Below, in pieces: positions 8,487 to 47,634 of a stretch of 64,000 nucleotides of DNA (position 1 is its first letter; every line of letters begins with the position of its first letter). The position numbers and the translations under genes were made by a program. Under the pieces are notes generated by a model. It was given only the letters and a program-made list of their open reading frames with translations. It made no database searches and was not told the DNA's origin. This DNA comes from Bacillota bacterium (lineage in GTDB: Bacteria > Planctomycetota > UBA8108 > UBA1146). The stretch covers positions 81,763 to 145,762 of the forward strand of contig QNYK01000062.1 in the NCBI GenBank assembly GCA_003973385.1, read 5' to 3'.

Positions 8487-8799
8487 CCGTCGACGACCCC
8501 CTCTCTCCCGGAGGAGGTCAGACCTCGAGCGGGACGATTTCCTGAGCAGGGCGACAACTTCCCTGCTTCGTTCTGGAGAACCTTGTGGTCCATGTGTGGT
8601 CAACCATGAGGGACTCATCAATCATAAGGAGTTTCGATTCGGTCGCATCGTGATGGTCGCATGACCATCCATCGTCCCGGGGAGACGGGCCAGTGACCGA
8701 GGAGATGATGCACGGGTCGGCGGCAAGACCGCTGCTCCAGCGAGTACTCTGAACTGTCTTCGGAGCGCTGGGGATCAACCCAAACGGAAGGAACTGGAG

Positions 8800-9651
8800 A
8801 TGAGTGGGCTCGCCAAGTTTTTCGTGGTGATCAATTTCGTCCTGGCACTTCTTTTCCTCGGTGTCAGTGCAACGCTGTTCCAGTCTCAGAAGGACTGGAA
8901 AGGTGCTGCCGAAACAGCCGTGGAGAATGCAGAAGAGACGGTCGCCATGGCGGAGAAGATGAAGGAAACGCTGCAAGGCGTCGTGGATGAGAAGAGCAGG
9001 AATAACGAATCCCTGACGAGAGAAAAGGAACAACTGAGTTCCTCGATCTTGACCCTCCAGAACTCCAATGGAGATCTGCGAAAGAGCGTCGCCCAGCTGG
9101 GCACCAAGATCGATGATCTGGATTCCCGGATAGCCCAGAAAGATGAGCATATCCAGGACAAGGACTCCAACATCGCACGCCTCGAGGAAGAAATCTCTCG
9201 GCTGAGTACGGAGATCGACTCTGCGGGTGACGCCAAGAAACTGGCGGAACGGCTGCGCAACCGCGCGTTACTCGACAAGGAGCAACTGGCTCAGCAGACG
9301 GAAGCCCTCAACAAGGAACTCACCGCACTCAAGGAAGACTATGATGACCAGCAGTTGCTGATCTCCAGGATCGTGGACTCCGGCATCCGGCTTCCCGATA
9401 TCGGTGTCACCACCGCCCCACCCATCGACGGCATGGTCGTCGGTGTTCAGGAGGGGGTTGTGGTGCTCTCCGTCGGAAAAGATGACAACGTTGAGATCGG
9501 CTATGAGTTCACCATCTACGACGGCAACCGATTCATCGGAAAAGTCCAGGTGACCAAGGTCCTCGACGATATGTCCGGCTGCACCATCCTGTTCCAGGAG
9601 GATTCCGGTATTCGTGAGGGTCACAAAGCCTCGACACGGCTGTCCAGCTAG
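8800..9651 (+). CDS. Membrane-anchored coiled-coil protein with a C-terminal beta-rich domain (hypothetical)
   Basis: N-terminal TM helix (FFVVINFVLALLFLGVSATLF). About 170 aa of heptad-like charged sequence (EEISRLSTEIDSAGDAKKLAERLRN...). C-terminal domain GMVVGVQEGVVVLSVGKDDNVEIGYEFTIYDG. Confidence 0.6.
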   Translation: MSGLAKFFVVINFVLALLFLGVSATLFQSQKDWKGAAETAVENAEETVAMAEKMKETLQGVVDEKSRNNESLTREKEQLSSSILTLQNSNGDLRKSVAQLGTKIDDLDSRIAQKDEHIQDKDSNIARLEEEISRLSTEIDSAGDAKKLAERLRNRALLDKEQLAQQTEALNKELTALKEDYDDQQLLISRIVDSGIRLPDIGVTTAPPIDGMVVGVQEGVVVLSVGKDDNVEIGYEFTIYDGNRFIGKVQVTKVLDDMSGCTILFQEDSGIREGHKASTRLSS

Positions 9652-10238: not shown

Positions 10239-11312
10239 TTGCTTTTCCGAATAGCACACAACTGGATCAATTCCGTGGTTGGTAGGTTCTCCACCGATCT
10301 TGGAATCGATCTGGGCACGGCGAATACTATCGTCTGTGTCAGGGGTAAAGGCATCGTGATCAGCGAGCCGTCGGTAGTTGCGGTGAAAGCTGGCACCAAC
10401 CAGGTTCTCCTCAATGGTCGAGCCGTCGGTAGTGTCGCGAAGGAAATGATGGGCAGAACCCCCGCTTCCATCGAGGCCATACGTCCCCTCAGAGACGGCG
10501 TGATCGCCGATTTCGAGATCACTGAAGCGATGTTGAAGTACTTCATCACCAAGGTCCAGAACCGATCTCGCTTCTTCAGCCCCCGGGTGGTCATCGCTGT
10601 TCCCAGCGGCATCACTGCAGTCGAGAAACGTGCGGTTTACAATTCTGCCGAACGGGCTGGAGCCAGAAAGGTCTACCTGGTCGAAGAGCCTCGCGCAGCA
10701 GGACTCGGTGCAGGACTTCCCATCGAGGAGCCCATCGCCAGCATGGTGGTCGATGTTGGCGGAGGAACCACCGAGATCGCGGTACTGTCGCTGGCAGATG
10801 TCGTGACCAGTGTCTCATTACGTGTCGCCGGAGACGAAATGGATGAAGCGATCATCAAGTACATGAAGGACACCTATAACATCCTGGTCGGCCCTCTCAC
10901 CGCAGAACAGATCAAGATCAAGATCGGTTCCGCATATCAACTCGAAGACGAACTCGAGATGGAGGTCAAGGGGCGCGATCTGATCGGAAACTTGCCGCGA
11001 AGTGCCCGGATCACGAGTGAAGAGATCAGAGAAGCACTTCAGCCACCCATCGAGACGATTGTCGAGGGCATCAAGGCGACGCTGGAGCAGACCGAGCCGG
11101 AGCTTTGTTCAGATCTGGTCGAGCGCGGCATCGTTCTCTGTGGCGGAGGAGTGCTGCTGAGAGGTCTCGATGAGTTGATCCGGAAGGCCACAGGATTGCC
11201 TGTTCGAGTGGCCGACGATCCCCTCACCTGTGTGGCTCGCGGGACTGCGATTTTCCTTGAAAATCTGGATCAATATTCTTCGGTCCTCGACTCCATCGAG
11301 GACGATTTCTAG
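10239..11312 (+). CDS. mreB: Rod shape-determining actin homologue MreB
   Basis: Near-colinear with E. coli MreB: [78 protein letters not shown]. Confidence 0.9.
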
Positions 11313-11344: not shown

Positions 11345-12055
11345 GTGAAGCGCACCCAGAGCGCTTACTGGGCGATCTGTTGCTGGTTGGTCCTGGCCCT
11401 GCTGGGCTACGGGCTTCAGCCGCTCGTTTCTTCATCTCGGGGAGATGCAGACCGACAGATTCTTCTGGAACAGGCGCTACAGCACTCCTTACTGCTGGAA
11501 TCTGAAAATTCGGCGCTCTTCGACCGGCAGCGACTTCTGGATCGATATCTCTCGGCCAGTTTCGCTGGCTCCAGTTTCCTGCTGATTCCTGCCCGCATGA
11601 CTCCATTACTGGACCCGGCGCCCAGAAGGTCCTCAGCCAGGCTCGATCGAGGTTCCGAGGATGGTCTAGAGATTGGAATGGGAGTGATCGGTGCCTCCGG
11701 TGTGGTGGGAAAGATCGCCGCAGTCGGTCAAGGCTGGAGTCGGGTACAGCTCGCTGACGACCCGGCGTTCGTGATTCCTTTCATCGACGATTCCGGTCAT
11801 GCGGGAATCTTCGCTGGCGGCCCCGAGGCGGGCTATGGACAGCCGCGTCTCAGGATCGATCCGATTCAGATCAAGGATGCACTGGTGCTTCGTACCCACG
11901 GCGGAGGAGGCGCATTCCCCGAGGGACTGATCCTGGGGATCGTTGCCGATGCGCGAATCCCTGTCAGTGATTCCAGGATCCTGCTGTCCCGGGCACTTCA
12001 TACCAGCCAGGAGATTCTGGTGCTGTCTCCCATCCTGAATGCGAGCCATCGATGA
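11345..12055 (+). CDS. mreC: Rod shape-determining protein MreC
   Basis: Position immediately after mreB. N-terminal TM. C-terminal beta domain with MreC-like G-rich motifs (GMGVIGASGVVGKI..; GLILGIV). GTG start. Confidence 0.7.
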   Translation: MKRTQSAYWAICCWLVLALLGYGLQPLVSSSRGDADRQILLEQALQHSLLLESENSALFDRQRLLDRYLSASFAGSSFLLIPARMTPLLDPAPRRSSARLDRGSEDGLEIGMGVIGASGVVGKIAAVGQGWSRVQLADDPAFVIPFIDDSGHAGIFAGGPEAGYGQPRLRIDPIQIKDALVLRTHGGGGAFPEGLILGIVADARIPVSDSRILLSRALHTSQEILVLSPILNASHR

Positions 12056-12531
12056 GAGTCGGCTGGCTGATCACCCTGACCCTGCTGTCGATGCTGACCG
12101 TGGAAGCCTACCGCCCTCTCGTTGTCTACTCGGGGGGCATTGCAGATCCGGCACTGATATTTCTGGCCTGGTTGGCGTTGATCGATCGGTGGCCACGAAT
12201 CCTGCTGGTCGCCACGATGATCTGTCTCTACAGATCCATCGGTGGTATTTCCAGCGTCATCGAACTGGTTGGCCCCGTGGCGGCACTGATCATTTCGGTT
12301 CGCTGGTTTCGGCTGGTGCTCGATCCCTATCACCCCTGGAAGAGGTTTCAGATTCTGATTCCTGCACTGCTGATCGCCTTCGTCGTTCAGGAATGGCTGC
12401 TGGCCGGAGTCGTTCCAGGTCTGTTCTTCGTGGTGAATGGCTGCTGGCTCTCGGTCCTGGTTGCTGCGTTGCTGTTTCCAGTACTGGATCTGGTGACCCC
12501 CTTGCTCAGGAGTGCCAGATACCCGCTTTGA
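12052..12531 (+). CDS. mreD: Rod shape-determining protein MreD (polytopic membrane protein)
   Basis: 4-nt ATGA overlap with mreC. About 160 aa, multiple TM helices, in the canonical mreBCD position. Confidence 0.55.
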   Translation: MRVGWLITLTLLSMLTVEAYRPLVVYSGGIADPALIFLAWLALIDRWPRILLVATMICLYRSIGGISSVIELVGPVAALIISVRWFRLVLDPYHPWKRFQILIPALLIAFVVQEWLLAGVVPGLFFVVNGCWLSVLVAALLFPVLDLVTPLLRSARYPL

Positions 12532-16865: not shown

Positions 16866-18185
16866 TCAGGGGCAGGCGTCAAACTGGTCACAGGTGAGGT
16901 CGTCCTCGGTGGGATCGATTCCACATTCGTCAAACGGCGCAGCGGGAGGCGCACCACCCGAGAACATGTAGCTCAGCAGCAAGACAGGATCTCCCAGAAC
17001 GATGCTGCCACTGTCATCGATGTCACCATTCTTCTCGCAAGCGGAGGCCGTTCCACCGCTGAACATGTAATCGAGCAGGTTCACCGGATCGCCCAGATTG
17101 AGAGTTCCGTTGCCGTCAAAATCACCTCGCGTGAACTGGACGCCAAAAACTCCCTCGAGAATCTCGATCCCGGTGCCCGATGTCTGAACAACACCGGAGG
17201 TCGAACCGATCGAAACCACGATGGCTGTCGGAGGTGAAGGAGATTGCGGGATCAAGGTATCGGTAAAATCAAGGGTGGTGATGCCGAGCGGCGCCGTGGC
17301 GACCGCCTGATAGTGGCTGATGATCAACTCCTGGCCATTTCCAGCGGGGAGTGTCGTCAGATCGGAGAGCGAGTAGAGACAACCGACGACCAGGCCATCT
17401 GCCCCCACCGGATCGATATCCATGGTCAAGAATGCCGGTCCGTTACCGCCGTTGAGAGCAGTGAGGGCGGCCCCGGCATCCGCAGCCAGCAGCGTCAATG
17501 CAGCGCCAGAATGGGCGAAACCGAAGGAGAAACCGTAGTTCTCAACCGGCGCATCCAGCAGGATCTGGACGTCAACGTCGCCACCCTGCTCGACACTACT
17601 CGCAGAGGGCGAGGCACTCAATTCGAAGGGCAGTATTCCACCGATCTCGATGAGCCCATCGATGGTGGTCGGTTCGATGGCGATACCACCAGGCGCCACT
17701 GCGAGATTTTCGGAATTGGAAGAATCTCCCGGAAAAACTTCGGTGCAGTATTCGATGGCTGCAAAGGTATCGTCCGGGCCCAGCAACTGCGCTTGCATCA
17801 CGATCGCTTCATGGTCAGTGTCGATCGGCAAATCATTGAGTCCAACAAAGTTGATCACGACACCCTGTCTGACTCCGAATCCGGGAAACAGGCTCAGTTC
17901 AGCGAAATCAGCGGGTCCCCCAGCATTGGATGTGTTGGGTGCAGATCCATTGACCGCCTCGACCACTTCCATGCTGGAATCGTAACAGATGGCGATGGAC
18001 CAGCCCGCAAGAACCCCGCCGTTGTTATCGATCAACGATCGGGTGGTGACAACGGCGCCGGAAGGCCCGGAACTGCTGGTATCAAAGTGAAAGATGTAAT
18101 CAGGGTTCTGTGCTGCGATCGGGCTGGAGATGACCATCAGCAACAGAAGGCCGATGAGGTGCAACGGGATACGAAGGTGAACCAT
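16866..18185 (-). CDS. Secreted protein with cohesin-like N-terminal region(s) and a C-terminal type-I dockerin pair plus Cys tail
   Basis: Signal peptide MVHLRIPLHLIGLLLLMVISSPIAAQ (start chosen at this Met). Dockerin repeats RGDFDGNGTLNLGDPVNLLDYMF and KNGDIDDSGSIVLGDPVLLLSYMF. Tail PFDECG..C..C. Gly/Ala-rich beta-like middle region. Confidence 0.65.
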   Translation of the reverse strand: MVHLRIPLHLIGLLLLMVISSPIAAQNPDYIFHFDTSSSGPSGAVVTTRSLIDNNGGVLAGWSIAICYDSSMEVVEAVNGSAPNTSNAGGPADFAELSLFPGFGVRQGVVINFVGLNDLPIDTDHEAIVMQAQLLGPDDTFAAIEYCTEVFPGDSSNSENLAVAPGGIAIEPTTIDGLIEIGGILPFELSASPSASSVEQGGDVDVQILLDAPVENYGFSFGFAHSGAALTLLAADAGAALTALNGGNGPAFLTMDIDPVGADGLVVGCLYSLSDLTTLPAGNGQELIISHYQAVATAPLGITTLDFTDTLIPQSPSPPTAIVVSIGSTSGVVQTSGTGIEILEGVFGVQFTRGDFDGNGTLNLGDPVNLLDYMFSGGTASACEKNGDIDDSGSIVLGDPVLLLSYMFSGGAPPAAPFDECGIDPTEDDLTCDQFDACP

Positions 18186-18586
18186 GAATTGACTCCTGTT
18201 CGGGCGAGCACGTTGGAGGCGGTGATCGAACCGTAGTTCGAGCCCGAGGATGGCTCCGGGACCGATTATAGGCCCGTTCGGTGGCAATCTACCCGGTTTC
18301 GGGAATCACCGCACCCTCGCACTGACCACCGTTCCAGCGCAGAATCATGGTCAGATCGACCTATTGTAGCACTCGAACCCACTTTTCGGCACCCCTCCCC
18401 TGGCACCAGAAATGTCAATTGCTGCCGAATGTCCAGATCAGGGACACCCGGGCCGCATTCGGTACCGAGGTCGAGACCCGGACGCTGCCGCACCCCCACC
18501 ACAACCTCGATCCCCTGCGGGCACGGCGTTTGCCTCCCCTCCACCAGCACTGCGGTACTCCCGCGGCAGACGCAGAAAGGACCGAG

Positions 18587-19288
18587 ATGACTCTTGAAGC
18601 CAGCGACAGCCCCCTGCCGCTTCCAGTCAGTTCCGTTCATGAACTGCAAGATCTTCAGAAGAAGGGCATCAGCAAGATGCGGGTCGTCTCGGCGAGCCAG
18701 TTACGGAACTCGGCCAGGATTGCGCTCGCGCAGGCCCTCAACGAGATGCTCGGAGAGATTCAGATCTGCGGCGAGGAACGCCAGTTGATCCTGGATCGTG
18801 CGCAGAGCCACCTGATGCCGTCCAACCCCGGCACCGATTCGATTCCAGTGGAGACCCCTGAAGTGGCACCCGCATCGAAGCCAGTGCCCCGGGCAGATGA
18901 AACGAAAGAAGCGCAGCAGTCACAGCCTCCAGCATCTGCCTCCAAGGGCCCACTCGGAGAGAGAGAAAAGGCGCTGCTCGTCCAGCTCTCGCGGCTCATC
19001 GCACGCGATTGGAGAACGGAACTGGCGACGGTGAGGGATTCACAACGCACCCAGGTCGAAAGGCTCGAGATGAGGATTGAAGAATTGACGCTTGCTCTGC
19101 ACGCGACCGATCACGCACTCGCCGGCGAGGACAAGAAATGCACCGCCGAACTGGAAGTGAAATCCCCGTTTGATCACAAGAAATCAGAACTCCTGGACCA
19201 ATTATTCCAGGCAAATGTGGCTCTCCGCTCCCTTGCGGATGAAACAGCACCTGGAGAAACAGGATCCCAGGACCGAGAAGGAAGGTAG
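18587..19288 (+). CDS. Hypothetical partner protein of the actin-like ATPase (helical N-domain, Pro/Glu/Ala/Ser-rich linker, C-terminal coiled coil)
   Basis: The stop is 3 nt before the start of the downstream MamK-like gene. Linker PVETPEVAPASKPVPRADETKEAQQSQPPASASKGP. C-terminal heptad-like RTQVERLEMRIEELTLALHA. Start chosen at the Met at 18587; an upstream in-frame ORF extension exists. Confidence 0.5.
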   Translation: MTLEASDSPLPLPVSSVHELQDLQKKGISKMRVVSASQLRNSARIALAQALNEMLGEIQICGEERQLILDRAQSHLMPSNPGTDSIPVETPEVAPASKPVPRADETKEAQQSQPPASASKGPLGEREKALLVQLSRLIARDWRTELATVRDSQRTQVERLEMRIEELTLALHATDHALAGEDKKCTAELEVKSPFDHKKSELLDQLFQANVALRSLADETAPGETGSQDREGR

Positions 19289-19290
19289 TC

Positions 19291-20388
19291 ATGACCCCGG
19301 AAAACAGGACTCAGCACAACAGTAACAAGGATGTGGCCGTGCCGTGGGCCAGCAACAAGACCAGTATCTTGCATGTCGGAATAGATCTGGGGACGAGCCG
19401 AAGCGCGATTGCCAGCTCTAACGGCGCTCGTGAAGTGATGGCGAGCCTGGTCGGTTGGCCCAAGGATTCGGTATCCGCCAGGGTACTGGGTGCCAGCATC
19501 CTTGTCGGCGACGCAGTGCTGGAAAATCGACTGGCACTCCATACCTGTTACCCACTGAATGCTGGGAATCTAGCCTTCACCGAGTTGAGCGGCCCCGAAA
19601 AGGACGCCTCGAGAAAGGCGGGAGTGACGCTGCTGGATGCGTTGCGCAAGGCCAGCAATCCGAGGCCAGATCAAGCGGTCTGTGCCGTGATCGGCGCCCC
19701 GGCTGAGGCCACCCGCGAGAACAAGCAGGCGATCGTGGACCTGGCCAGAGACGCCGGAATCGATGGAGTGATGGTGGTTTCCGAGCCCTTTGCCGTCGCC
19801 TATGCCGTCAATGCTCTGGAGAACGCCATCGTCATCGACATCGGAGCGGGCACCATCGACCTGTGTCGGATGGCTGGTAGTCTTCCCGGTGCAGAGGATC
19901 AGGTGACGGTGTTCCGCGCCGGCAACTATGTCGATCAAAGGCTGGCCGAATTGATTCGCGAGGCCCATCCCCAGGTTCAATTCACATCGAACATGATCAA
20001 GCTGGCCAAGGAGCGTTTCAGCAGCGTGGTGGATACCGAGAATCGCGCGCTGGTGACATTTCCGGTGGCCGGTTGCCCGACCAAGATCGACATCACTCCT
20101 CAACTACGAAGCGCTGTCGAGGAACTGGTGCCGTGGATCACACAAGGGATTCAGTCGCTGGTCGCCACCTTCGACCCGGAATTCCAGCATCGGATCCGCA
20201 ACAAGATCATCGTCAGCGGCGGAGGCTCGCAGGTCTTTGGCCTCCAGGAAGCCCTTGAAAAGGGGCTGGAAGCACTCGGCGGAGGCCGCGTGACGATCGT
20301 CGATGATCCGGTTTACGCAGGCGCTCAAGGTGCACTGAAGCTGGCCCAGGAGATGCCAGAAGAGTACTGGAGCCAGATGCGAAGGTGA
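19291..20388 (+). CDS. MamK-family actin-like ATPase (bacterial actin homologue distinct from MreB)
   Basis: Shares MamK-like motifs throughout: VGIDLGTSRSAIA (phosphate 1), VGWPKD, VCAVIGAPAEA, VVSEPFAVAY, IVIDIGAGTIDLC (phosphate 2), GSLPGAEDQVTVFRAGNYVDQRL, IIVSGGGSQVFGLQEAL (adenosine), DPVYAGAQGALKLAQEMPEEYW. Compared from memory with Magnetospirillum MamK. No database search was run. Confidence 0.8.
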   Translation: MTPENRTQHNSNKDVAVPWASNKTSILHVGIDLGTSRSAIASSNGAREVMASLVGWPKDSVSARVLGASILVGDAVLENRLALHTCYPLNAGNLAFTELSGPEKDASRKAGVTLLDALRKASNPRPDQAVCAVIGAPAEATRENKQAIVDLARDAGIDGVMVVSEPFAVAYAVNALENAIVIDIGAGTIDLCRMAGSLPGAEDQVTVFRAGNYVDQRLAELIREAHPQVQFTSNMIKLAKERFSSVVDTENRALVTFPVAGCPTKIDITPQLRSAVEELVPWITQGIQSLVATFDPEFQHRIRNKIIVSGGGSQVFGLQEALEKGLEALGGGRVTIVDDPVYAGAQGALKLAQEMPEEYWSQMRR

Positions 20389-20460
20389 TCCCTAGATTCC
20401 AATGCACTCCCCCCCTTCTCTGCCGGGGTCTCGATTCGTCGAGATCCCGGCGTATTTATT

Positions 20461-37347: not shown

Positions 37348-38694
37348 TCAGCGAATCCTGACATATTTTCCCAGATTCTCCCGTGCCAGTTGCTGGAGGA
37401 ATTCCTCCTCGGCATCGATGAACCCGAGAGTGAAGATTCGAACACCTCGCAGGTAGTTTCTGGCCCTGGTATCTTCCAGTATCTGCTTCATCAGTTGCCG
37501 GGAGTCCACGGGCAATTGGTCACCCTGGCTTCCGATATGAGTTGGCGCTCCATCTGTGATCAGATAAATCGTATCTACCGTGGGGTCAGTCAGTGCCATG
37601 TGCAAGGCCTCATCCGTAACGGTGATGCCGGTGGCCTGCAAATCGCTGACGAACTGCGATGCAGATGCCCGGTTTTTCTTCGAGGCAGGCAGAAGAATTG
37701 CACTCCAGGGGTTCACGGAAGACGAGTATGAAATGACAGTGAATCGTCGATCATCTCCCAGTCCTTCGATGGCTCGACTCACCTCTCTACGGGCCCGCAA
37801 GATCCTTCTGCGATGCTCCATCAGTTCCTCGAGTTTTTGTTCTACTGTTTCGTCAACTCCGGTACTTCGTCGTGCTTTCTCTATCGCCTCCTTGGAGGGT
37901 GGGTCGGTCGCCAGCATCGAACCGGAAGTGTCGACTATGAAGACGATATTCTTTCCGGTGATATCAAGGCCAAAGAGTCCTGTTCCCGTGACTGGTTGAC
38001 TTGCCTTGATGTCACCAGCACGGCTCGGATCGATTTCATCGCGGTGAGTCGCGATCCAGTTTCTGTACTGCTCAGCACCGTGAAGCGAAAGTCCCGTGAG
38101 TCGATGCAGAGCATCTCTGCAGGCGAGCCAGGTGCGATCTTGCGGAAGATGGCTCAACTCTTCTCGCCCTCCTTGCAGCGTTTTTTCGGCAGTTTTTGAA
38201 TCCTCCCATCTGGACATTGCGAGCACGAGTGGATCCAGAGCGAGGATTTCCTGACTGCGACCGAGAATTCTGGCAGCAACAGCAACAACCTGAGGAGCCT
38301 TGTCATCTATGGTGGCCAGCGCCAGCTGGATGGAATCGATCGAGTCTGACTGCAGTGAAGCTTCCAGTAAAAATAACCTTGCGGGCCATTTCTTGCTGGT
38401 GCGAATGAGGGTTTCGAATTCCTTGGCGACAACGGATGCGGGAACAAATGGGACGGCCCGGATGGCCGTCACGAAGATCCGATGGCGATCAAAGTAATGC
38501 CACTGCTCCTCTGCAATCTCCTCAACCCGGGCCACCGTTGAGGCAAGAATGGAGATCGATCGAGGTCCCTGCTCCTGAGCAATCGCCTGTATCCTGATCA
38601 TCACTGCGGATGTATCCCGATCAGCGATGGCCTGGTCCAGTGCACGATCAACAGCGATGGGCATGGCGATGACAAGAAGAAGGAGAGGGATCAA
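37348..38694 (-). CDS. von Willebrand factor type A (VWA) domain protein
   Basis: MIDAS motif IVFIVDTSGSM and downstream TDGAPT in the C-terminal half. N-terminal TM/signal. Helical N-terminal region. Confidence 0.75.
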   Translation of the reverse strand: MIPLLLLVIAMPIAVDRALDQAIADRDTSAVMIRIQAIAQEQGPRSISILASTVARVEEIAEEQWHYFDRHRIFVTAIRAVPFVPASVVAKEFETLIRTSKKWPARLFLLEASLQSDSIDSIQLALATIDDKAPQVVAVAARILGRSQEILALDPLVLAMSRWEDSKTAEKTLQGGREELSHLPQDRTWLACRDALHRLTGLSLHGAEQYRNWIATHRDEIDPSRAGDIKASQPVTGTGLFGLDITGKNIVFIVDTSGSMLATDPPSKEAIEKARRSTGVDETVEQKLEELMEHRRRILRARREVSRAIEGLGDDRRFTVISYSSSVNPWSAILLPASKKNRASASQFVSDLQATGITVTDEALHMALTDPTVDTIYLITDGAPTHIGSQGDQLPVDSRQLMKQILEDTRARNYLRGVRIFTLGFIDAEEEFLQQLARENLGKYVRIR

Positions 38695-43386: not shown

Positions 43387-44205
43387 ATGACCCCGAGCGA
43401 TCAATCGCAGCCTTCACCGATGGTCGAGATGACTCGCCTGAAGCAGATCATAGATCGGTTGCGATCTCCTGGAGGCTGCCCGTGGGATCTGGCGCAGACC
43501 GCTGACAGTTTGAGGCCCTACCTGCTGGAGGAGGCCCACGAGGCTGCCGAGGCGATCAGTTCCGGAGACCCTGAGCGGATCTGCGAGGAACTGGGGGATC
43601 TTCTGATGAACATCCACCTGCAAGCGCGTATCGGCGAGGAAAGTGGTGCGTTCACACTGGAGAATATTGCGCGTGATATCTCCGAAAAATTGATCCGGAG
43701 ACACCCTCATGTATTCGCAGATGGTGTTGCCGAGGATGCCGAAGCGGTCCGTAGAGCCTGGGATCAGATCAAGAGTCAAGAAAAGGGAGACGTGAACCAG
43801 CACTCCCCTACGATCCGCACCTTGCCGGCCTCCTTGCCCGCTCTGGCTCGAGCAGACAGGATCGGAAAGATGGCTGCAGAGGTGGGATTCGACTGGCCAG
43901 CGCTGGCTGGCCCACGGGATAAACTGAATGAAGAACTGGCAGAGTTGGATGAAGCGGTGAGTGAAGGCAATCGAAAAGCCATCCACCATGAGATAGGAGA
44001 CCTGCTCTTCGCGGCCTCCAGTATCGCCCGAAAACTCGAAATCGATCCCGAACAGGCGCTCAACGACTCACTCGAGCGCTTCCGTCATCGCTTTACTTAC
44101 ATCGATGAGCAACTCGGAGATGCTGTCAGGGCAGATCTGGAACAACTGGAAGAATGGTATCAGCAGGGCAAGAACCGCGAGGAAGAGGCAACCGATGGAA
44201 GCTGA
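43387..44205 (+). CDS. mazG: Nucleoside triphosphate pyrophosphohydrolase MazG
   Basis: Two MazG EEXXE/H-type helical modules (LLEEAHEAAEAI..EELGDLLMNI; HHEIGDLLFAAS), RHPHVF motif. Confidence 0.85.
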   Translation: MTPSDQSQPSPMVEMTRLKQIIDRLRSPGGCPWDLAQTADSLRPYLLEEAHEAAEAISSGDPERICEELGDLLMNIHLQARIGEESGAFTLENIARDISEKLIRRHPHVFADGVAEDAEAVRRAWDQIKSQEKGDVNQHSPTIRTLPASLPALARADRIGKMAAEVGFDWPALAGPRDKLNEELAELDEAVSEGNRKAIHHEIGDLLFAASSIARKLEIDPEQALNDSLERFRHRFTYIDEQLGDAVRADLEQLEEWYQQGKNREEEATDGS

Positions 44206-45274
44206 ATACGGCGGGCTGGCAGAGGTCCAGCGACGCATCCGAGAAGGGCTGGCGACCAGGATCATCGGCCAGGATTCCGCCATTCAACAGATTCTCACTG
44301 CCTTCTTTGCTGGTGGTCACATCCTCATCCTCGGAGTTCCTGGACTGGCCAAGACCTTGATGATCCGATCGCTTTCAGAGCTTCTGGATTTGCAATTCAG
44401 CCGGGTGCAGTTCACACCGGATCTGATGCCTCAGGACATCACCGGAACCTCGATCCTGACTTCCGACTCAGATGGAATGGACCGAGGATTTCGGTTCAGG
44501 AAGGGGCCCCTCTTCGCCAACTTGTTGCTGGGCGACGAGATCAATCGTACACCTCCCAAGACCCAGGCTGCACTCCTGGAGGCGATGGAAGAGGGACAGG
44601 TCACTGTGATGGGGCAGCGGCACAAACTGCCCGTTCCATTTTTTGTCATGGCAACCCAGAACCCACTGGAACAGGAAGGCACCTATTTGCTTCCATCCAC
44701 GCAACTGGACAGATTTGCGTTCCAGGTGATGCTCGATTACCCGAACGAAGCGGAAGAACTCGAGTTGGTCTCCAGCACGACAGCACGAACCGAGGAACCG
44801 CTGCATCCGGTGATTCCAGGTTCCTGGGTCACCGATGCCATCGAAGAGATTCGCAAGGTTGTGATCCCTGACTGGGTGTTGCTCAGGGCCACGCGCATGG
44901 TACGAGCAACCCGTCCGGGTGAGGTAGATGGTTGTGAAGTCGCCAGGGAATTGTTGTCTCACGGTGCAGGTCCCAGAGGAATTCAGACGATGCTCACCAC
45001 TTCAAGGGCGCTGGCTGCATTGCGAGGGAGAAACACGGTGATTGCTGAGGATCTGGACGAGGTGATCTTACCGTCGCTGCGACACCGTATAGTGCTCAGC
45101 GTACACGCAGATGCTGAAGGTTTGACCCAGGATGATGTCATCCAGAGAGTGAGAGAGTCCATCGGAGATCTCGACGGAGATATGCCTCGGATACAGGATG
45201 GAGAACTGGGGTTTTTACGCAGGTGGCTCGAGAAATTGTCCGATACAACTCCCGACTTCAAAGTGAGCAAATAG
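44195..45274 (+). CDS. MoxR-family AAA+ ATPase
   Basis: Walker A (LGVPGLAKT), Walker B (LLGDEINR), sensor region. Start chosen at MEAEYGG, overlapping the mazG stop by 11 nt. Confidence 0.85.
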   Translation: MEAEYGGLAEVQRRIREGLATRIIGQDSAIQQILTAFFAGGHILILGVPGLAKTLMIRSLSELLDLQFSRVQFTPDLMPQDITGTSILTSDSDGMDRGFRFRKGPLFANLLLGDEINRTPPKTQAALLEAMEEGQVTVMGQRHKLPVPFFVMATQNPLEQEGTYLLPSTQLDRFAFQVMLDYPNEAEELELVSSTTARTEEPLHPVIPGSWVTDAIEEIRKVVIPDWVLLRATRMVRATRPGEVDGCEVARELLSHGAGPRGIQTMLTTSRALAALRGRNTVIAEDLDEVILPSLRHRIVLSVHADAEGLTQDDVIQRVRESIGDLDGDMPRIQDGELGFLRRWLEKLSDTTPDFKVSK

Positions 45275-45291: not shown

Positions 45292-47496
45292 TCAACTGCT
45301 GGAAGCCACAAACCCGATGATGTCCCTGGCGCTCTCCTCGTCGTAACCGTGACGCTCCTGAAGCCGCTGCAACACTGATTCTGCAACACCGATCTCTTCT
45401 TCGGTCAGGGCGCCGCGTTCCTCGGTGAAGTACTTCAGGACATCATGTTGAATCCGCAACATGGTCGAGGATCGCTCCTTCCAGATCGAGGTCTTGAGTT
45501 TGCTGAAGAGACCCGGGAATACTGTCTTGTATCTCAACTCGGTATCAGGATTTTCTGTTGCGTAGGCTCCGATTCTGCTCAGCAAACCAGATCGGAATTC
45601 AGGGACGCTCACCTGGATGTCGAGCATCTCTTCCACCCGCTTCATCAGATCGGCAGATGCTGCGACATGTTCCCCAGTAGGCCCATGAAAAATCGTGGTG
45701 CCAGTATCGAACGCTTTGACGTGCTTGAAATAGTCAGTGAAGATTCTTTCGAACTCTTCTTCCTCCACCAGACCGATGCTATCAAAAACCTCCTGGCGCA
45801 CGATTTCCAGGTAATGGGAACGGACTTGTTCGATGAACTGGGTGCAATCATTGTACCCGTTGTCGACGGGCAACCTGAGAAAGTCGTGAACGCTAGACTC
45901 CTTGATGAAGATCTCTAACTCACTGAACATGGTGAGCGGCGACAGGCAGGATCTAGTACTATCTTCAGCTGCCAGAGCAATCATGGTGATCATCTCGCGC
46001 GGAGAAGCTCCTCTACGACCCTCGTATTCAGATCCGTAGATGCCCTCGAACTCCCCCTCTGCATCCTCGTGTTCATCTCTCAATGCGCGAATATTCTGAC
46101 CGAGCATTTTTTGTTCATCGGCCTTGAACTCTGCTGGAGTTTCTCCGTGGTCGTAGAGAAGTGCCTTTTGCATCGGAGTCAACCGAGCAACAACTGGAGC
46201 CAGATCAGGATGATGGTTCTTGGGTGATGGCCTCTTGAGGCGAGTCAGCACCGCCCACAGCGCGGTCATCTCGGCTGTGTGCGGGGCCACGGATTTTCCG
46301 ATCGCATGTGTCTTGATATTACGCTGGTAAAGTTCTGCTTCTCGGGAGTACTGCAACAGGTATGGAACCCTGATCAAACTGAGTCTACCTTTGAAGGATG
46401 AGAAATCTGGAGTCCTCTTGAACAGATTGAGCTGTTTCTCATTCGCAGTGCCAGTCAGCACGATGTCGAGATGGGCCCTGTAATTGGGCAACTGGATCGT
46501 GCCCTTTTCGGATGTGGTGAGCAGGTATTTATTGGTCTCAGGTGGACGCTTCAGGAAATCGGAGTATTCACACAGGCCTCGATTGGCGTCGACCAGTTCA
46601 CCCTCCATTTCGTAGAGCGGCATACCGTGAAGGACACCAGGCAGCGCATTCCCTTCGTATGCCATCAATCGCGTCTGGGCGTCGATATTCCCCTGCGGTT
46701 CAATGCTGATACAGCCGAGCCGGTATCGCTTTGAGTGAAAGAAGCGCTCGACCTGGATGTGGCGCATCACCTTGCTCCAGTCCCCCTGGTTTGCTGCCAG
46801 CAACGCCTCGTAGATCCACTTACTCTTCTGGCTCAAATCACCATGAATGGCCCATTCGTAATTGAATTGATCCATTTCGGAAACCTCTGGGTGAGCAGCG
46901 ATGGCTCTATCGATCAGTTCCTTTCGCTCCTGTCTTGGAATCAGGAACAGTGGCGAATCTTTCAACTCGCAGCGAATGATGGAACCAATATCTTCAGCCT
47001 TGAGAAAAGCGTATGTGCCGCTATCTGCACCCTCATCTTCTTCGAAACCGATCCTGCCTGCTTCGCTCGATTTGAGCGGGAAGATCCAGTTGAACCTGTA
47101 CATGGAACCCTCTGGACGGGTGCTGTAGTGCGTCATGGCGTGCATGATCGACTGAATGGTCGTCGATTTGGCGGAGCCATTGGGCCCGTGAAGCAAGATC
47201 AATCGATCAGCGATCCCGTTTCGAGCGAACTGTCGCAACTTCTGATAGATCGAGTTCTGAACCCTCTCCTGTGCAACGAGCGACTCCTCTGATCGAGTGA
47301 AGCCAAGATTGAAGAGACTCCACCTGCGGTCGATCATCCCGACCCGCTGGACCTCTTCTGTTCCGTAGTACTCGAACATATCACACAGGTACCGTGGAGA
47401 ATTTCTCAGATAAGGATAAGGACTCGATAGGAAGTCCTCGATGAACCCCGTGACACTTCGAAGCCTCTGGCGGGCCTCGAATCTATCCAGGGACAT
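45292..47496 (-). CDS. prkA: PrkA-family serine protein kinase (AAA+ N-domain)
   Basis: N-terminal Walker A LLHGPNGSAKST. Length ~735 aa. Characteristic PrkA N-terminal region (FEYYGTEEV..). Start approximate. Confidence 0.8.
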   Translation of the reverse strand: MSLDRFEARQRLRSVTGFIEDFLSSPYPYLRNSPRYLCDMFEYYGTEEVQRVGMIDRRWSLFNLGFTRSEESLVAQERVQNSIYQKLRQFARNGIADRLILLHGPNGSAKSTTIQSIMHAMTHYSTRPEGSMYRFNWIFPLKSSEAGRIGFEEDEGADSGTYAFLKAEDIGSIIRCELKDSPLFLIPRQERKELIDRAIAAHPEVSEMDQFNYEWAIHGDLSQKSKWIYEALLAANQGDWSKVMRHIQVERFFHSKRYRLGCISIEPQGNIDAQTRLMAYEGNALPGVLHGMPLYEMEGELVDANRGLCEYSDFLKRPPETNKYLLTTSEKGTIQLPNYRAHLDIVLTGTANEKQLNLFKRTPDFSSFKGRLSLIRVPYLLQYSREAELYQRNIKTHAIGKSVAPHTAEMTALWAVLTRLKRPSPKNHHPDLAPVVARLTPMQKALLYDHGETPAEFKADEQKMLGQNIRALRDEHEDAEGEFEGIYGSEYEGRRGASPREMITMIALAAEDSTRSCLSPLTMFSELEIFIKESSVHDFLRLPVDNGYNDCTQFIEQVRSHYLEIVRQEVFDSIGLVEEEEFERIFTDYFKHVKAFDTGTTIFHGPTGEHVAASADLMKRVEEMLDIQVSVPEFRSGLLSRIGAYATENPDTELRYKTVFPGLFSKLKTSIWKERSSTMLRIQHDVLKYFTEERGALTEEEIGVAESVLQRLQERHGYDEESARDIIGFVASSS

Positions 47497-47634
47497 ATGT
47501 CGAAATTTACTGATGAAATCGGATGCAGCGCTCACTCTTCCCCGTTTCCACTGGGCAGTACCCGATCGGTGATCGGCACCATTGGAATGATAACCGAATC
47601 CGTCTCCGAGGTCACACCCACCGGTACGCCTGAA

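What the first reader, a model, noticed from the sequence alone, without database searches (positions are those of the whole stretch)
18290..20388. Two-gene operon encoding a MamK-family actin-like ATPase and an upstream linker/coiled-coil partner, in a genome that also has a full MreB elongasome
The 19291-20388 product shares MamK-like motifs over its whole length: both phosphate loops, the VGWPKD, VCAVIGAPAEA and VVSEPF blocks, GxLPGxEDQVTxxxAGNYVDxRL, and the C-terminal PxxYW. It is clearly distinct from the MreB copy at 10239. It starts 3 nt after a 234-aa protein (18587-19288) that has a MamJ-like architecture: a helical N-domain, a Pro/Glu/Ala/Ser-rich acidic linker and a C-terminal coiled coil. 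The partner shows no sequence similarity to MamJ. No recognisable large mam genes (A/B/M/E/O/P/Q) are nearby, so this is not a magnetosome island; mamI/mamL-size proteins could not be assessed. The pair is more likely a non-magnetosome MamK-type filament system with its own cargo adaptor. Its function is unknown.
Basis: partly seen in the sequence, partly recalled or inferred. Interest (0 to 1): 0.78.

Follow-up and report, generated by a model that had tools for sequence, protein, structure and literature searches.

The report
Planctomycete MamK-like actin with conserved partner
This is a two-gene operon in a non-magnetic marine planctomycete that encodes a MamK-type actin-like filament protein and an unnamed coiled-coil partner found beside that actin across the phylum; the partner's conserved tail helix probably docks it onto the filament.

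Summary
The 365-aa protein (19291-20388) is a MamK-type actin-like ATPase: NCBIfam MamK 390 bits (cutoff 400), 41% identical to M. magneticum MamK, and its AF2 model fits the MamK filament subunit at TM 0.96. The window's true MreB (10239-11312) is separate. The 233-aa upstream gene (18587-19288) is real and ends 2 nt before the ATPase start. A terminator-like hairpin follows the ATPase. None of the ORFs scanned in the 64-kb window is a magnetosome gene.

The ATPase is not new as a kind. It belongs to a Planctomycetota clade of MamK-like actins, one of which was named 'saltatorellin' in a 2019 preprint.

The partner is the more interesting part. It has no Pfam, NCBIfam or PDB relative, and no paper I could search describes it. 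A homolog lies directly upstream of the ATPase in 80 of 90 sources, and in none of 80 loci holding true MamK or other MamK-like actins. The partner-linked actins form one exclusive clade. The conserved core is a C-terminal coiled coil plus a terminal helix (h-x-x-h-h-x-x-N-h-x-h-[RQK]). The N-terminal modules vary (small helical domain, GGDEF, PAS).

Most likely it is a filament adaptor or regulator. Binding and cellular role are inferred, not shown.

The parts
18288..18586 (.). Divergent intergenic region between the secreted dockerin-like gene (16866-18287, - strand) and the partner gene; presumed promoter region.
   Evidence: No sigma-70 consensus site was found. There are no iterated centromere-like repeats, only weak two-copy matches. 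The in-frame ORF extension here is not conserved in relatives.
18587..19288 (+). Partner gene, 233 aa: member of an unnamed coiled-coil family always found next to the Planctomycetota MamK-like actins.
   Evidence: No Pfam, NCBIfam, PADLOC, PDB or Foldseek relative. Homologs at 44-92% identity occur in Planctomycetota MAGs. A homolog lies directly upstream of the ATPase in 80 of 90 sources.
18644..18814 (+). Partner N-terminal small helical domain (aa 20-76) with the conserved block GIxKxRVVSxSQL..LAVxxAL.
   Evidence: AF2 helices 20-25, 36-57 and 62-76, pLDDT 70-84. The block is conserved in alignments A1 and A3. Other family members have GGDEF or PAS domains in its place.
18821..18949 (+). 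Flexible Pro/Ser/Ala-rich linker (aa 79-121).
   Evidence: pLDDT 33-48. Composition: Pro 19%, Ser 14%, Ala 14%, net charge -2. Not conserved; replaced by coiled coil in most relatives.
18950..19144 (+). Long helix (aa 122-186) containing the conserved coiled-coil segment VERLExRIxxLxxAL.
   Evidence: pLDDT 86-98. R163 is invariant and L167 and L178 nearly invariant across 28 diverse members. L160, I164 and L171 are invariant among the 7 members of A1, which gives heptad spacing of 4-3-4 residues.
19169..19246 (+). Terminal helix (aa 195-220). The core motif LDQLFQANVALR (aa 203-214, nt 19193-19228) is the proposed ATPase/filament-binding element.
   Evidence: pLDDT about 90. K199 and N210 are invariant and L213 nearly so. 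The motif regex gives 81 matches per 80,707 aa in upstream ORFs against 2 per 992,366 aa elsewhere. It is present in 58 of 60 database family members, near the C-terminus.
19277..19285 (+). Shine-Dalgarno-like GAAGGAAGG for the ATPase, inside the last codons of the partner gene.
   Evidence: Sequence read directly. The stop TAG is at 19286-19288 and the ATG at 19291, which points to translational coupling.
19291..20388 (+). MamK-type actin-like ATPase, 365 aa, of the Planctomycetota ('saltatorellin'-type) clade.
   Evidence: NCBIfam MamK 390 bits. PDB MamK E 4e-80. AF2 pLDDT 87, pTM 0.83. Foldseek best match is the MamK filament 5ljv_A, TM 0.96, rmsd 1.4 A. The catalytic E165 and D183 (MamK E143 and D161) and both phosphate loops are conserved.
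20421..20452 (+). Terminator-like hairpin (14-bp stem, 9 G-C pairs, T-rich tail) 33 nt after the ATPase stop, between convergent genes.
   Evidence: No such site lies between the two genes on the + strand.

Best explanation
The locus is a self-contained, co-transcribed two-gene cytoskeletal module on the chromosome of a non-magnetotactic marine planctomycete. The downstream gene encodes a MamK-type actin-like ATPase that polymerises into filaments. The upstream gene encodes a coiled-coil partner made in step with it through a 2-nt gap and an internal ribosome-binding site. The partner's conserved C-terminal module is a heptad coiled coil followed by a roughly 18-residue helix with an invariant Asn in a hydrophobic stretch. 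I propose that this module docks onto the ATPase or its filament. The interchangeable N-terminal part would connect the filament to a cellular target or an input signal; in this window it is a small three-helix domain on a 43-residue flexible linker. In function the pair resembles ParM/ParR, AlfA/AlfB or MamK/MamJ: an actin-like polymer plus a dedicated adaptor or regulator. Shown here: the identity and fold of the ATPase, the operon layout, the phylum-wide and clade-exclusive linkage of the two families, the motif, and the modular N-termini. Inferred: polymerisation (from the intact catalytic and fold features and from the preprint on a relative), physical binding through the terminal helix, and any cellular role such as positioning, polarity, shape or division.
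For: ATPase identity. Operon layout. Linkage: a partner homolog lies on the same strand directly upstream in 80 of 90 sources, with gaps of -9 to +317 nt. The reciprocal look-up from partner homologs finds the ATPase immediately downstream in 2 of 3 cases. No third family is conserved across the loci; the next most frequent neighbour is in 16 loci. Specificity: 0 of 80 loci around true MamK or other MamK-like actins have the partner. All 78 non-redundant partner-linked ATPases form an exclusive clade in 23 of 25 NJ bootstraps. Motif: about 500-fold enriched and confined to ORFs upstream of the ATPase. It survives when the rest of the partner is replaced by PAS plus coiled coil, or is reduced to a short protein. 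It occurs as 2-3 tandem copies separated by Gly-rich spacers in L037, L064 and L072, which looks like a short linear binding motif repeated to engage several subunits. The low hydrophobic moment (0.15), with hydrophobic residues spread around the helix and an invariant Asn among them, argues against a plain membrane-targeting helix. A related Planctomycetota MamK-like protein forms filaments in E. coli and M. gryphiswaldense (bioRxiv 10.1101/817700).
Against: No direct evidence of binding exists. Clade-specific positions in the ATPase are few and do not define a clear docking surface. The a/d spacing L203-L206-N210-L213 also fits a self-associating leucine zipper. An orphan partner paralog exists without an adjacent ATPase. 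The window protein has His where MamK has A278, the site of the non-polymerising A278D mutation, so its filament interface may differ. I could not confirm that the published saltatorellin sequence falls in this clade; only its primer-derived C-terminus (YWEQLK) matches. The NCBIfam MamK score is just under the curated cutoff. The two locus sets were gathered with different queries, so unsampled intermediates could blur the clade boundary.
Confidence: 0.6

Rival explanations
1. The partner does not bind the ATPase through its terminal helix. The helix is instead a dimerisation zipper or a membrane- or envelope-anchoring element. The partner would then act as a scaffold or anchor that meets the filament through another region, or only indirectly.
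For: L203, L206, N210 and L213 occupy a/d-like positions with Asn at 'a', as in dimeric leucine zippers. Basic residues flank the helix in the main clade (KK...LQKK). Tandem copies could equally raise membrane avidity.
Against: The hydrophobic moment is low (0.15) and a polar invariant Asn sits among the hydrophobic residues. Membrane-targeting helices rarely keep an invariant residue pattern over such divergence (established knowledge). The 13-residue copies in L072 between Gly-rich spacers are too short for a stable zipper. The motif's strict genomic linkage to one actin clade is most simply explained if that actin is its target.
Confidence: 0.2
2. A chromosomal ParMRC-like (type II) DNA-segregation system, in which the partner is a ParR-like centromere-binding adaptor.
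For: It is a two-gene actin-plus-adaptor layout. A subset of related loci adds a ParA/MinD-type P-loop ATPase upstream.
Against: No DNA-binding fold or family is detected in the partner. No iterated repeats flank the genes. The context is chromosomal housekeeping genes, and the pair is single-copy in this window. N-terminal GGDEF and PAS variants do not fit a centromere binder. ParM scores only 23 bits.
Confidence: 0.05
3. A genuine or remnant magnetosome-chain system (MamK plus a MamJ analogue), with the other magnetosome genes lying elsewhere in the genome.
For: The ATPase scores close to NCBIfam's MamK cutoff. Metagenomic magnetotactic Planctomycetota have been reported (PMC12748827).
Against: No mam or mad gene appeared among the 40 ORFs scanned in the window. 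The ATPase falls outside the true MamK clade. True mamK loci lack the partner, 0 of 5. The pair is present in at least 80 diverse, mostly Planctomycetota genomes with unrelated neighbourhoods. There is no similarity to MamJ.
Confidence: 0.03
4. The two genes are only syntenic neighbours with unrelated functions.
For: No experiment links them.
Against: Adjacency persists at 45-49% ATPase identity while every other neighbour changes. The spacing is tight or overlapping. The partner is exclusive to this actin clade.
Confidence: 0.03

Closest known systems
Saltatorellin, the MamK-like actin homolog of Saltatorellus ferox Poly30 (Wiegand et al., bioRxiv 10.1101/817700, 2019)
   Same: A second actin homolog alongside MreB in a non-magnetotactic planctomycete-related bacterium. 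It branches close to MamK. Its primer-derived C-terminus YWEQLK is identical to that of several main-clade proteins in my set and close to the window's EEYWSQMRR.
   Different: I did not hold the S. ferox sequence, so membership of the same clade is inferred. The preprint describes the actin only: 'operon' and 'neighbo' give no hits in its text. It links the protein to shape-shifting in Saltatorellota, whereas the pair found here is spread across many Planctomycetota lineages, including Kuenenia and Phycisphaerales MAGs.
MamK, the magnetosome actin of Magnetospirillum (PDB 5ljv, 5ljw, 5jyg), with MamJ
   Same: 41% identity over the full length. The fold superposes at TM 0.96 and 1.4 A. Catalytic residues are conserved. 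As with mamJ-mamK, an adaptor-like gene sits directly upstream.
   Different: It falls outside the true MamK clade. There is no magnetosome gene cluster. The partner is unrelated to MamJ and has no strongly acidic repeats. His replaces MamK A278.
BeeR, the three-stranded tubular actin of Verrucomicrobiota (PDB 8r2n; PNAS 2025, PMC11929497)
   Same: Another MamK-related actin of non-magnetotactic PVC bacteria, with a disordered N-terminal extension.
   Different: Only 25% identity. The NCBIfam BeeR score is 166 bits against a cutoff of 530. The residues that define BeeR's cross-strand contacts were not examined here.
ParM/ParR (type II plasmid partition), and AlfA/AlfB and Alp7A/Alp7R
   Same: A two-gene module of an actin-like polymer with a dedicated adaptor. 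ParR binds ParM through a short C-terminal helix (established knowledge: Gayathri et al. 2012), which is the model for the mechanism proposed here.
   Different: The gene order is reversed (adaptor first). No DNA-binding domain and no centromere repeats were found. The location is chromosomal and phylum-wide. ParM similarity is negligible.
Tandem WH2-domain actin nucleators of eukaryotes (Spire, Cordon-bleu)
   Same: This is an analogy only. Short helical actin-binding motifs are repeated in tandem with flexible spacers, as seen in the L037, L064 and L072 partners.
   Different: There is no sequence relationship, and binding to the bacterial actin is untested.

Membership tests
MamK family actin-like protein (NCBIfam NF040964, subfamily model) | Whole-protein score at or above the curated cutoff (400 bits) | tested here: not met
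   390.1 bits, E 7.4e-117, covering profile positions 1-331 of 335. This is a borderline miss. NCBI names some clade members 'MamK family actin-like protein' (P0030, P0093).
MamK family actin-like protein | Actin/MamK fold with intact nucleotide-binding and catalytic residues (MamK E143 and D161, phosphate loops, GGGS) | tested here: met
   Foldseek best match is MamK filament 5ljv_A, TM 0.96, rmsd 1.4 A. E165, D183, D32-G34-T35 and G310-S313 are conserved.
Magnetosome MamK sensu stricto | Placement inside the clade of MamK proteins from magnetotactic bacteria | tested here: not met
   The NJ trees put the window in a Planctomycetota clade separate from AMB-1 MamK, MamK-like P0234 and 'Magnetosome protein MamK' P0224. 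The clade is exclusive in 23 of 25 bootstraps. These are distance trees only.
Magnetosome MamK sensu stricto | Encoded within a magnetosome gene cluster (mamAB-type genes nearby) | tested here: not met
   Forty ORFs across the 64-kb window give only housekeeping families. By contrast, L090 shows mamE-mamJ-mamK. The rest of the genome was not available.
Magnetosome MamK sensu stricto | ATP-dependent polymerisation into filaments that organise magnetosomes | not testable with these tools
   The only support is the preprint's report that a related planctomycete protein forms filaments in heterologous hosts.
Saltatorellin (Planctomycetota MamK-like actin) | Orthology with the S. ferox Poly30 protein | tested here: inconclusive
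The primer-derived termini are MTDITTD... and ...YWEQLK. Five main-clade proteins end in exactly YWEQLK, but none starts with MTDITTD.
BeeR family (NCBIfam NF053558) | Score at or above 530 bits | tested here: not met
   166.2 bits; 25% identity to 8r2n.
MreB | Score at or above the NCBIfam/TIGR MreB cutoffs (293 and 366 bits) | tested here: not met
   69 and 58 bits. The window's real MreB at 10239-11312 scores 470 bits on Pfam MreB_Mbl, against 77 bits for this protein.
MamJ (for the partner) | Sequence similarity to MamJ, or acidic repetitive domains | tested here: not met
   BLASTP E 5.5 and hhalign probability 0.06% against the MamJ of L090. The linker's net charge is only -2 and it has no repeats.
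ParMRC type II partition system | Adaptor with a DNA-binding (RHH/HTH) domain plus iterated centromere repeats next to the genes | tested here: not met
   No such domain appears in family scans or the AF2 model. There are no iterated repeats.
New partner family (unnamed) linked to Planctomycetota MamK-like actins | C-terminal module LExRIxKL...(YRxVQGL)...h-x-x-h-h-x-x-N-h-x-h-[RQK] within about 20 residues of the C-terminus, encoded directly upstream of the actin | tested here: met
   The window partner matches the family profile at 268 bits. It has the motif LDQLFQANVALR ending 19 residues from its C-terminus. The YRxVQGL element of the main clade is absent from the window's marine subclade.

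The most novel reading that the evidence does not exclude
The pair is the core of a Planctomycetota-wide cytoskeletal system that has not been recognised before. It would consist of an actin-like filament whose assembly or attachment is controlled by a family of modular proteins sharing a short, WH2-like actin-binding helix. That helix is sometimes repeated in tandem, like a nucleator, and sometimes fused to PAS or GGDEF sensor domains or teamed with a ParA/MinD ATPase. In a phylum that lacks FtsZ, such a system could underlie budding or division, polarity, or membrane remodelling.
Probability: 0.2. Interest if true: 0.85.

Novelty: new variant of a known kind. Interest (0 to 1): 0.62.

Why it matters
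Actin-like filaments paired with dedicated adaptors (ParM/ParR, MamK/MamJ) are the textbook examples of how bacteria move and position things. Planctomycetes lack FtsZ and have unusual cell biology, including budding, shape-shifting and complex membranes, and their cytoskeletal basis is poorly understood.

This work shows that a MamK-type actin in the phylum almost always comes with one specific, so far unnamed partner family that has a sharply defined C-terminal motif. That provides:
- a concrete handle for experiments: a peptide to test for binding, and an invariant Asn to mutate;
- a correction to the idea that 'saltatorellin' is special to shape-shifting Saltatorellota;
- a hint, from the PAS, GGDEF and ParA-like variants, that filament behaviour responds to signals.

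It also warns against reading 'MamK family' annotations in MAGs as evidence of magnetotaxis.

Tried and rejected
- **Relatives of the partner.** Searches found nothing beyond coiled-coil noise: PDB profile search, Foldseek on the AF2 model (best E 1.5), Pfam on all 28 aligned members at E<=1, and PADLOC.
- **Specificity-determining positions.** Comparing partner-linked with partner-less ATPases gave only 11 positions. They cluster loosely at 321-342, which is too weak to define a docking site.
- **Natural fusions.** The long proteins (520-1232 aa) with C-terminal MamK-like domains are not partner-ATPase fusions: no profile hit, and one stray regex match.
- **Centromere-like repeats.** None were found around the operon.
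- **Sigma-70 promoter scan.** No site was found upstream. This is uninformative for a planctomycete.
- **The longer 313-aa reading of the partner ORF (from 18347).** Rejected, because the extension is not conserved.
- **The S. ferox saltatorellin sequence.** It was not among the proteins or loci I fetched.
- **A third conserved gene.** Rejected for the family as a whole.
Full report
**1. The observation**

Both ORFs are present as described. The 365-aa product of 19291-20388 scores 390.1 bits (E 7e-117) on NCBIfam's MamK subfamily model NF040964, just under its 400-bit cutoff. It scores 166 bits on BeeR (cutoff 530) and 58-69 bits on the MreB models. Pfam, which has no MamK model, sees only a weak MreB_Mbl match of 77 bits.

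Against PDB sequences, the top hits are the three MamK entries (E 4e-80, query 26-363). BeeR follows at 2e-28 and MreB at 1e-10. An AlphaFold2 model (pLDDT 87, pTM 0.83) superposes best on the MamK filament subunit 5ljv_A (TM 0.96, rmsd 1.4 A, 41% identity). BeeR comes next (25% identity), then MreB (about 20%). The catalytic Glu and Asp (MamK E143 and D161; here E165 and D183) and the phosphate loops are conserved.

The window's genuine MreB (10239-11312; 470 bits) sits with MreC, PBP2 and RodA. None of the 40 ORFs scanned across the 64 kb is a magnetosome gene. They are Rho, tRNA synthetases, PGK, DnaB, ribosomal protein S2, lipid A genes and the like.

**2. The upstream gene**

Protein conservation with relatives at about 80% ATPase identity begins exactly at that Met. 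The in-frame extension back to 18347 is not conserved, and in L013 it is interrupted by stop codons.

The stop codon (19286-19288) is 2 nt from the ATPase ATG. A GAAGGAAGG Shine-Dalgarno-like sequence lies in the partner's last codons. A 14-bp-stem terminator-like hairpin follows the ATPase at 20421-20452, and none separates the two genes. This is a two-gene operon.

The AlphaFold2 model (47-sequence alignment) gives these segments:
- a small helical N-domain (aa 20-76, pLDDT 70-84);
- a disordered stretch (aa 79-115, pLDDT below 40);
- a 65-residue helix (aa 122-186, pLDDT 86-98);
- a terminal helix (aa 195-220, pLDDT about 90).

The linker is Pro/Ser/Ala-rich but only mildly acidic, with net charge -2.

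**3. Conservation of the pair**

In relatives at 80%, 64%, 60% and 56% ATPase identity, the same upstream gene and much of the wider synteny are kept. At 47-49% identity everything around changes, but an unannotated ORF of about 280 aa still precedes the ATPase. Those ORFs align with the window's partner.

The best 80 are nearly all Planctomycetota MAGs. They include records labelled Kuenenia, Brocadiaceae, Phycisphaerales and Pirellulales, plus one Hydrogenedentes and one Omnitrophota record.

A profile of the partner finds a homolog on the same strand, ending -9 to +317 nt before the ATPase, in 80 of 90 sources. Most of the misses lack upstream sequence. No third gene family is conserved: the next most frequent neighbour occurs in 16 loci. 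Starting instead from partner homologs, the ATPase is immediately downstream in 2 of 3 look-ups. The third is an orphan paralog.

**4. What is conserved in the partner**

Across 28 diverse members, the invariant or near-invariant positions are almost all C-terminal: R163, L167, L178, K199, N210 and L213. The family consensus is LERRIxKL..L..TE..L, then DxGIASIYRxVQGL, then KKELMxxIFxANLxLQKK. The middle element is absent from the window's marine subclade.

The N-terminal part is interchangeable:
- a small helical domain, as in the window;
- a GGDEF domain (P0160, P0162, P0167);
- a PAS domain plus coiled coil (L069, L088);
- almost nothing at all, in short proteins of about 150 aa (L089, L088).

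In L037, L064 and L072 the terminal motif is present two or three times, separated by Gly-rich spacers.

A regex for the motif, [LIMV]..[LIVMF][LIVMFA]..N[LIVMAK].[LIVMF][RQK], matches 81 times in 80,707 residues of upstream ORFs (77 of 90 sources). It matches only twice in 992,366 residues of all other ORFs. Both of those are themselves extra upstream ORFs, in L069 and L088. The motif is present in 58 of 60 database family members and ends 4-17 residues from the C-terminus in 57 of them.

**5. Specificity**

I fetched 80 metagenomic loci using true MamK as the query. Five are Magnetospirillum-type mamK loci (78-96% identity), and one of them shows the canonical mamE-mamJ-mamK order. The rest are other MamK-like actins, many of them 43-45% identical to the window protein. 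None of the 80 has a partner-profile hit, and the few regex matches there are scattered and not C-terminal.

In a bootstrapped NJ tree, all 78 non-redundant partner-linked ATPases form one clade. It contains none of the 65 partner-less proteins and is recovered in 23 of 25 replicates. A second tree, made with 50%-identity representatives, puts the window in a marine subclade sister to the main Planctomycetota clade. That is apart from the clade holding AMB-1 MamK, its MamK-like paralog and a 'Magnetosome protein MamK'.

The partner therefore appears to have arisen with this actin clade and stayed with it. One caveat applies: the two locus sets were gathered with different queries and the trees are distance-based.

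**6. What it is not**

- The partner has no similarity to MamJ.
- It has no Pfam, NCBIfam, PADLOC or PDB relative and no structural neighbour.
- Databases call its relatives 'hypothetical protein', or 'GGDEF domain-containing' when fused.
- No DNA-binding fold and no centromere-like repeats were found, so a ParMRC-like partition system is unlikely.
- The chromosomal housekeeping context and the phylum-wide spread argue against a mobile or defence element.

**7. Mechanism**

The best reading is an actin-like filament plus a dedicated adaptor or regulator. The grounds for proposing that the terminal helix is the ATPase-binding element are:
- it is the only part retained in every variant;
- it is confined to genes next to this actin clade;
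- it can be repeated in tandem like a short linear binding motif;
- it carries an invariant Asn within a hydrophobic stretch, and its hydrophobic moment is low (0.15), which fits a buried protein interface better than a membrane-surface helix.

The precedent, from established knowledge, is ParR, whose C-terminal helix inserts into ParM.

The main rival is that the helix is a zipper or an anchor. L203, L206, N210 and L213 do fall on a/d-like positions. Clade-specific ATPase residues are too few to map a site.

The cellular role is unknown. The PAS and GGDEF variants, and a ParA/MinD-type gene added upstream in 16 loci, suggest regulated positioning or assembly rather than a static scaffold.

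**8. Comparison with the literature**

A 2019 preprint named a MamK-like actin of Saltatorellus ferox 'saltatorellin'. It showed that an mCherry fusion forms filaments in E. coli and in an M. gryphiswaldense mamK mutant, and proposed a role in shape-shifting (10.1101/817700). The primers given there encode a C-terminus YWEQLK, identical to several main-clade proteins in my set. I could not obtain the sequence to prove that it belongs to the same clade.

The preprint does not mention a neighbouring gene. Neither does the only other paper using the name (PMC11032199), the BeeR paper (PMC11929497), or two papers on MamK diversity and its coiled-coil partners (PMC10653835 and PMC12748827).

The actin is therefore a new member of a known kind. 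The partner family, its motif and its strict linkage appear to be undescribed in the literature I could search.

**9. Verdict**

The ATPase is MamK-like but not a magnetosome MamK. The resemblance to MamJ is only architectural and specific to the window's subclade. The conserved and informative feature is the C-terminal module. Interest is moderate to high for bacterial cell biology, and novelty is a new variant of the 'actin-like polymer plus adaptor' theme.

Noticed in passing
L022, L024, L025, L038, L051, L055, L057, L067, L068, L074 (Kuenenia), L077, L078, L082, L083: the gene directly upstream of the partner: In 16 related loci a MinD/ParA/MipZ-type P-loop ATPase (Pfam AAA_31, CbiA, ParA, MipZ) precedes the partner, giving a three-gene variant of ParA-like, partner, MamK-like actin. 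The window does not have it.
   Followed up: partly
P0192-P0220 (representative-library proteins), e.g. P0195 residues 1-880: A separate clade of MamK-like domains sits at the C-terminus of 520-1232-aa proteins. The N-terminal part of P0195 is a very long acidic Glu/Pro/Val/Ile-rich repeat region, reminiscent of a MamJ-type acidic region fused directly to the actin.
   Followed up: partly
window 16866-18287 (-): A 473-aa protein with a signal-peptide-like N-terminus and two dockerin-like repeats at its C-terminus (GDFDGNGTLNLGDPVNLLDYMF and GDIDDSGSIVLGDPVLLLSYMF) and no Pfam hit. It is conserved divergently upstream of the pair only in the marine subclade, in 14 loci.
   Followed up: partly
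L171 4001-5125 (P0175); L069 1735-2202 and 2206-3210; L088 627-1085 and 1155-2432: Extra motif-bearing proteins exist. One is an orphan paralog with no adjacent ATPase. Two loci carry two motif-bearing ORFs upstream of one ATPase. This suggests that several adaptors can share one filament.
   Followed up: partly
window 20188-20190 (ATPase His300): The residue aligned with MamK A278, whose A278D change blocks polymerisation in PDB 5ljw, is His here and in the clade consensus (EFQHR). The longitudinal interface may therefore differ from MamK.
   Followed up: no
window 19291-19362 (ATPase aa 1-24): The ATPase has a disordered N-terminal extension (pLDDT about 33) that MamK lacks. It is comparable to the disordered N-terminal domain described as a hallmark of BeeR.
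   Followed up: no
window 12052-12531 (+): The ORF in the MreD position, between mreC and the PBP2 gene, has no Pfam match. L001 has an equally unannotated 159-aa ORF at the same place.
   Followed up: no
window 8800-9651 (+) and 8518-9150 (-): Overlapping ORFs lie upstream of mreB. The + strand one is a 283-aa protein with only a weak long-coiled-coil (FPP) match, and which strand is coding was not resolved.
   Followed up: no
window 37348-38694 (-) and 44105-45274 (+): A VWA-domain protein and a MoxR-type AAA+ ATPase (AAA_3, bpMoxR) lie a few kb apart, and a PrkA-type kinase is at 45292-47535. They are unrelated to the finding.
   Followed up: no
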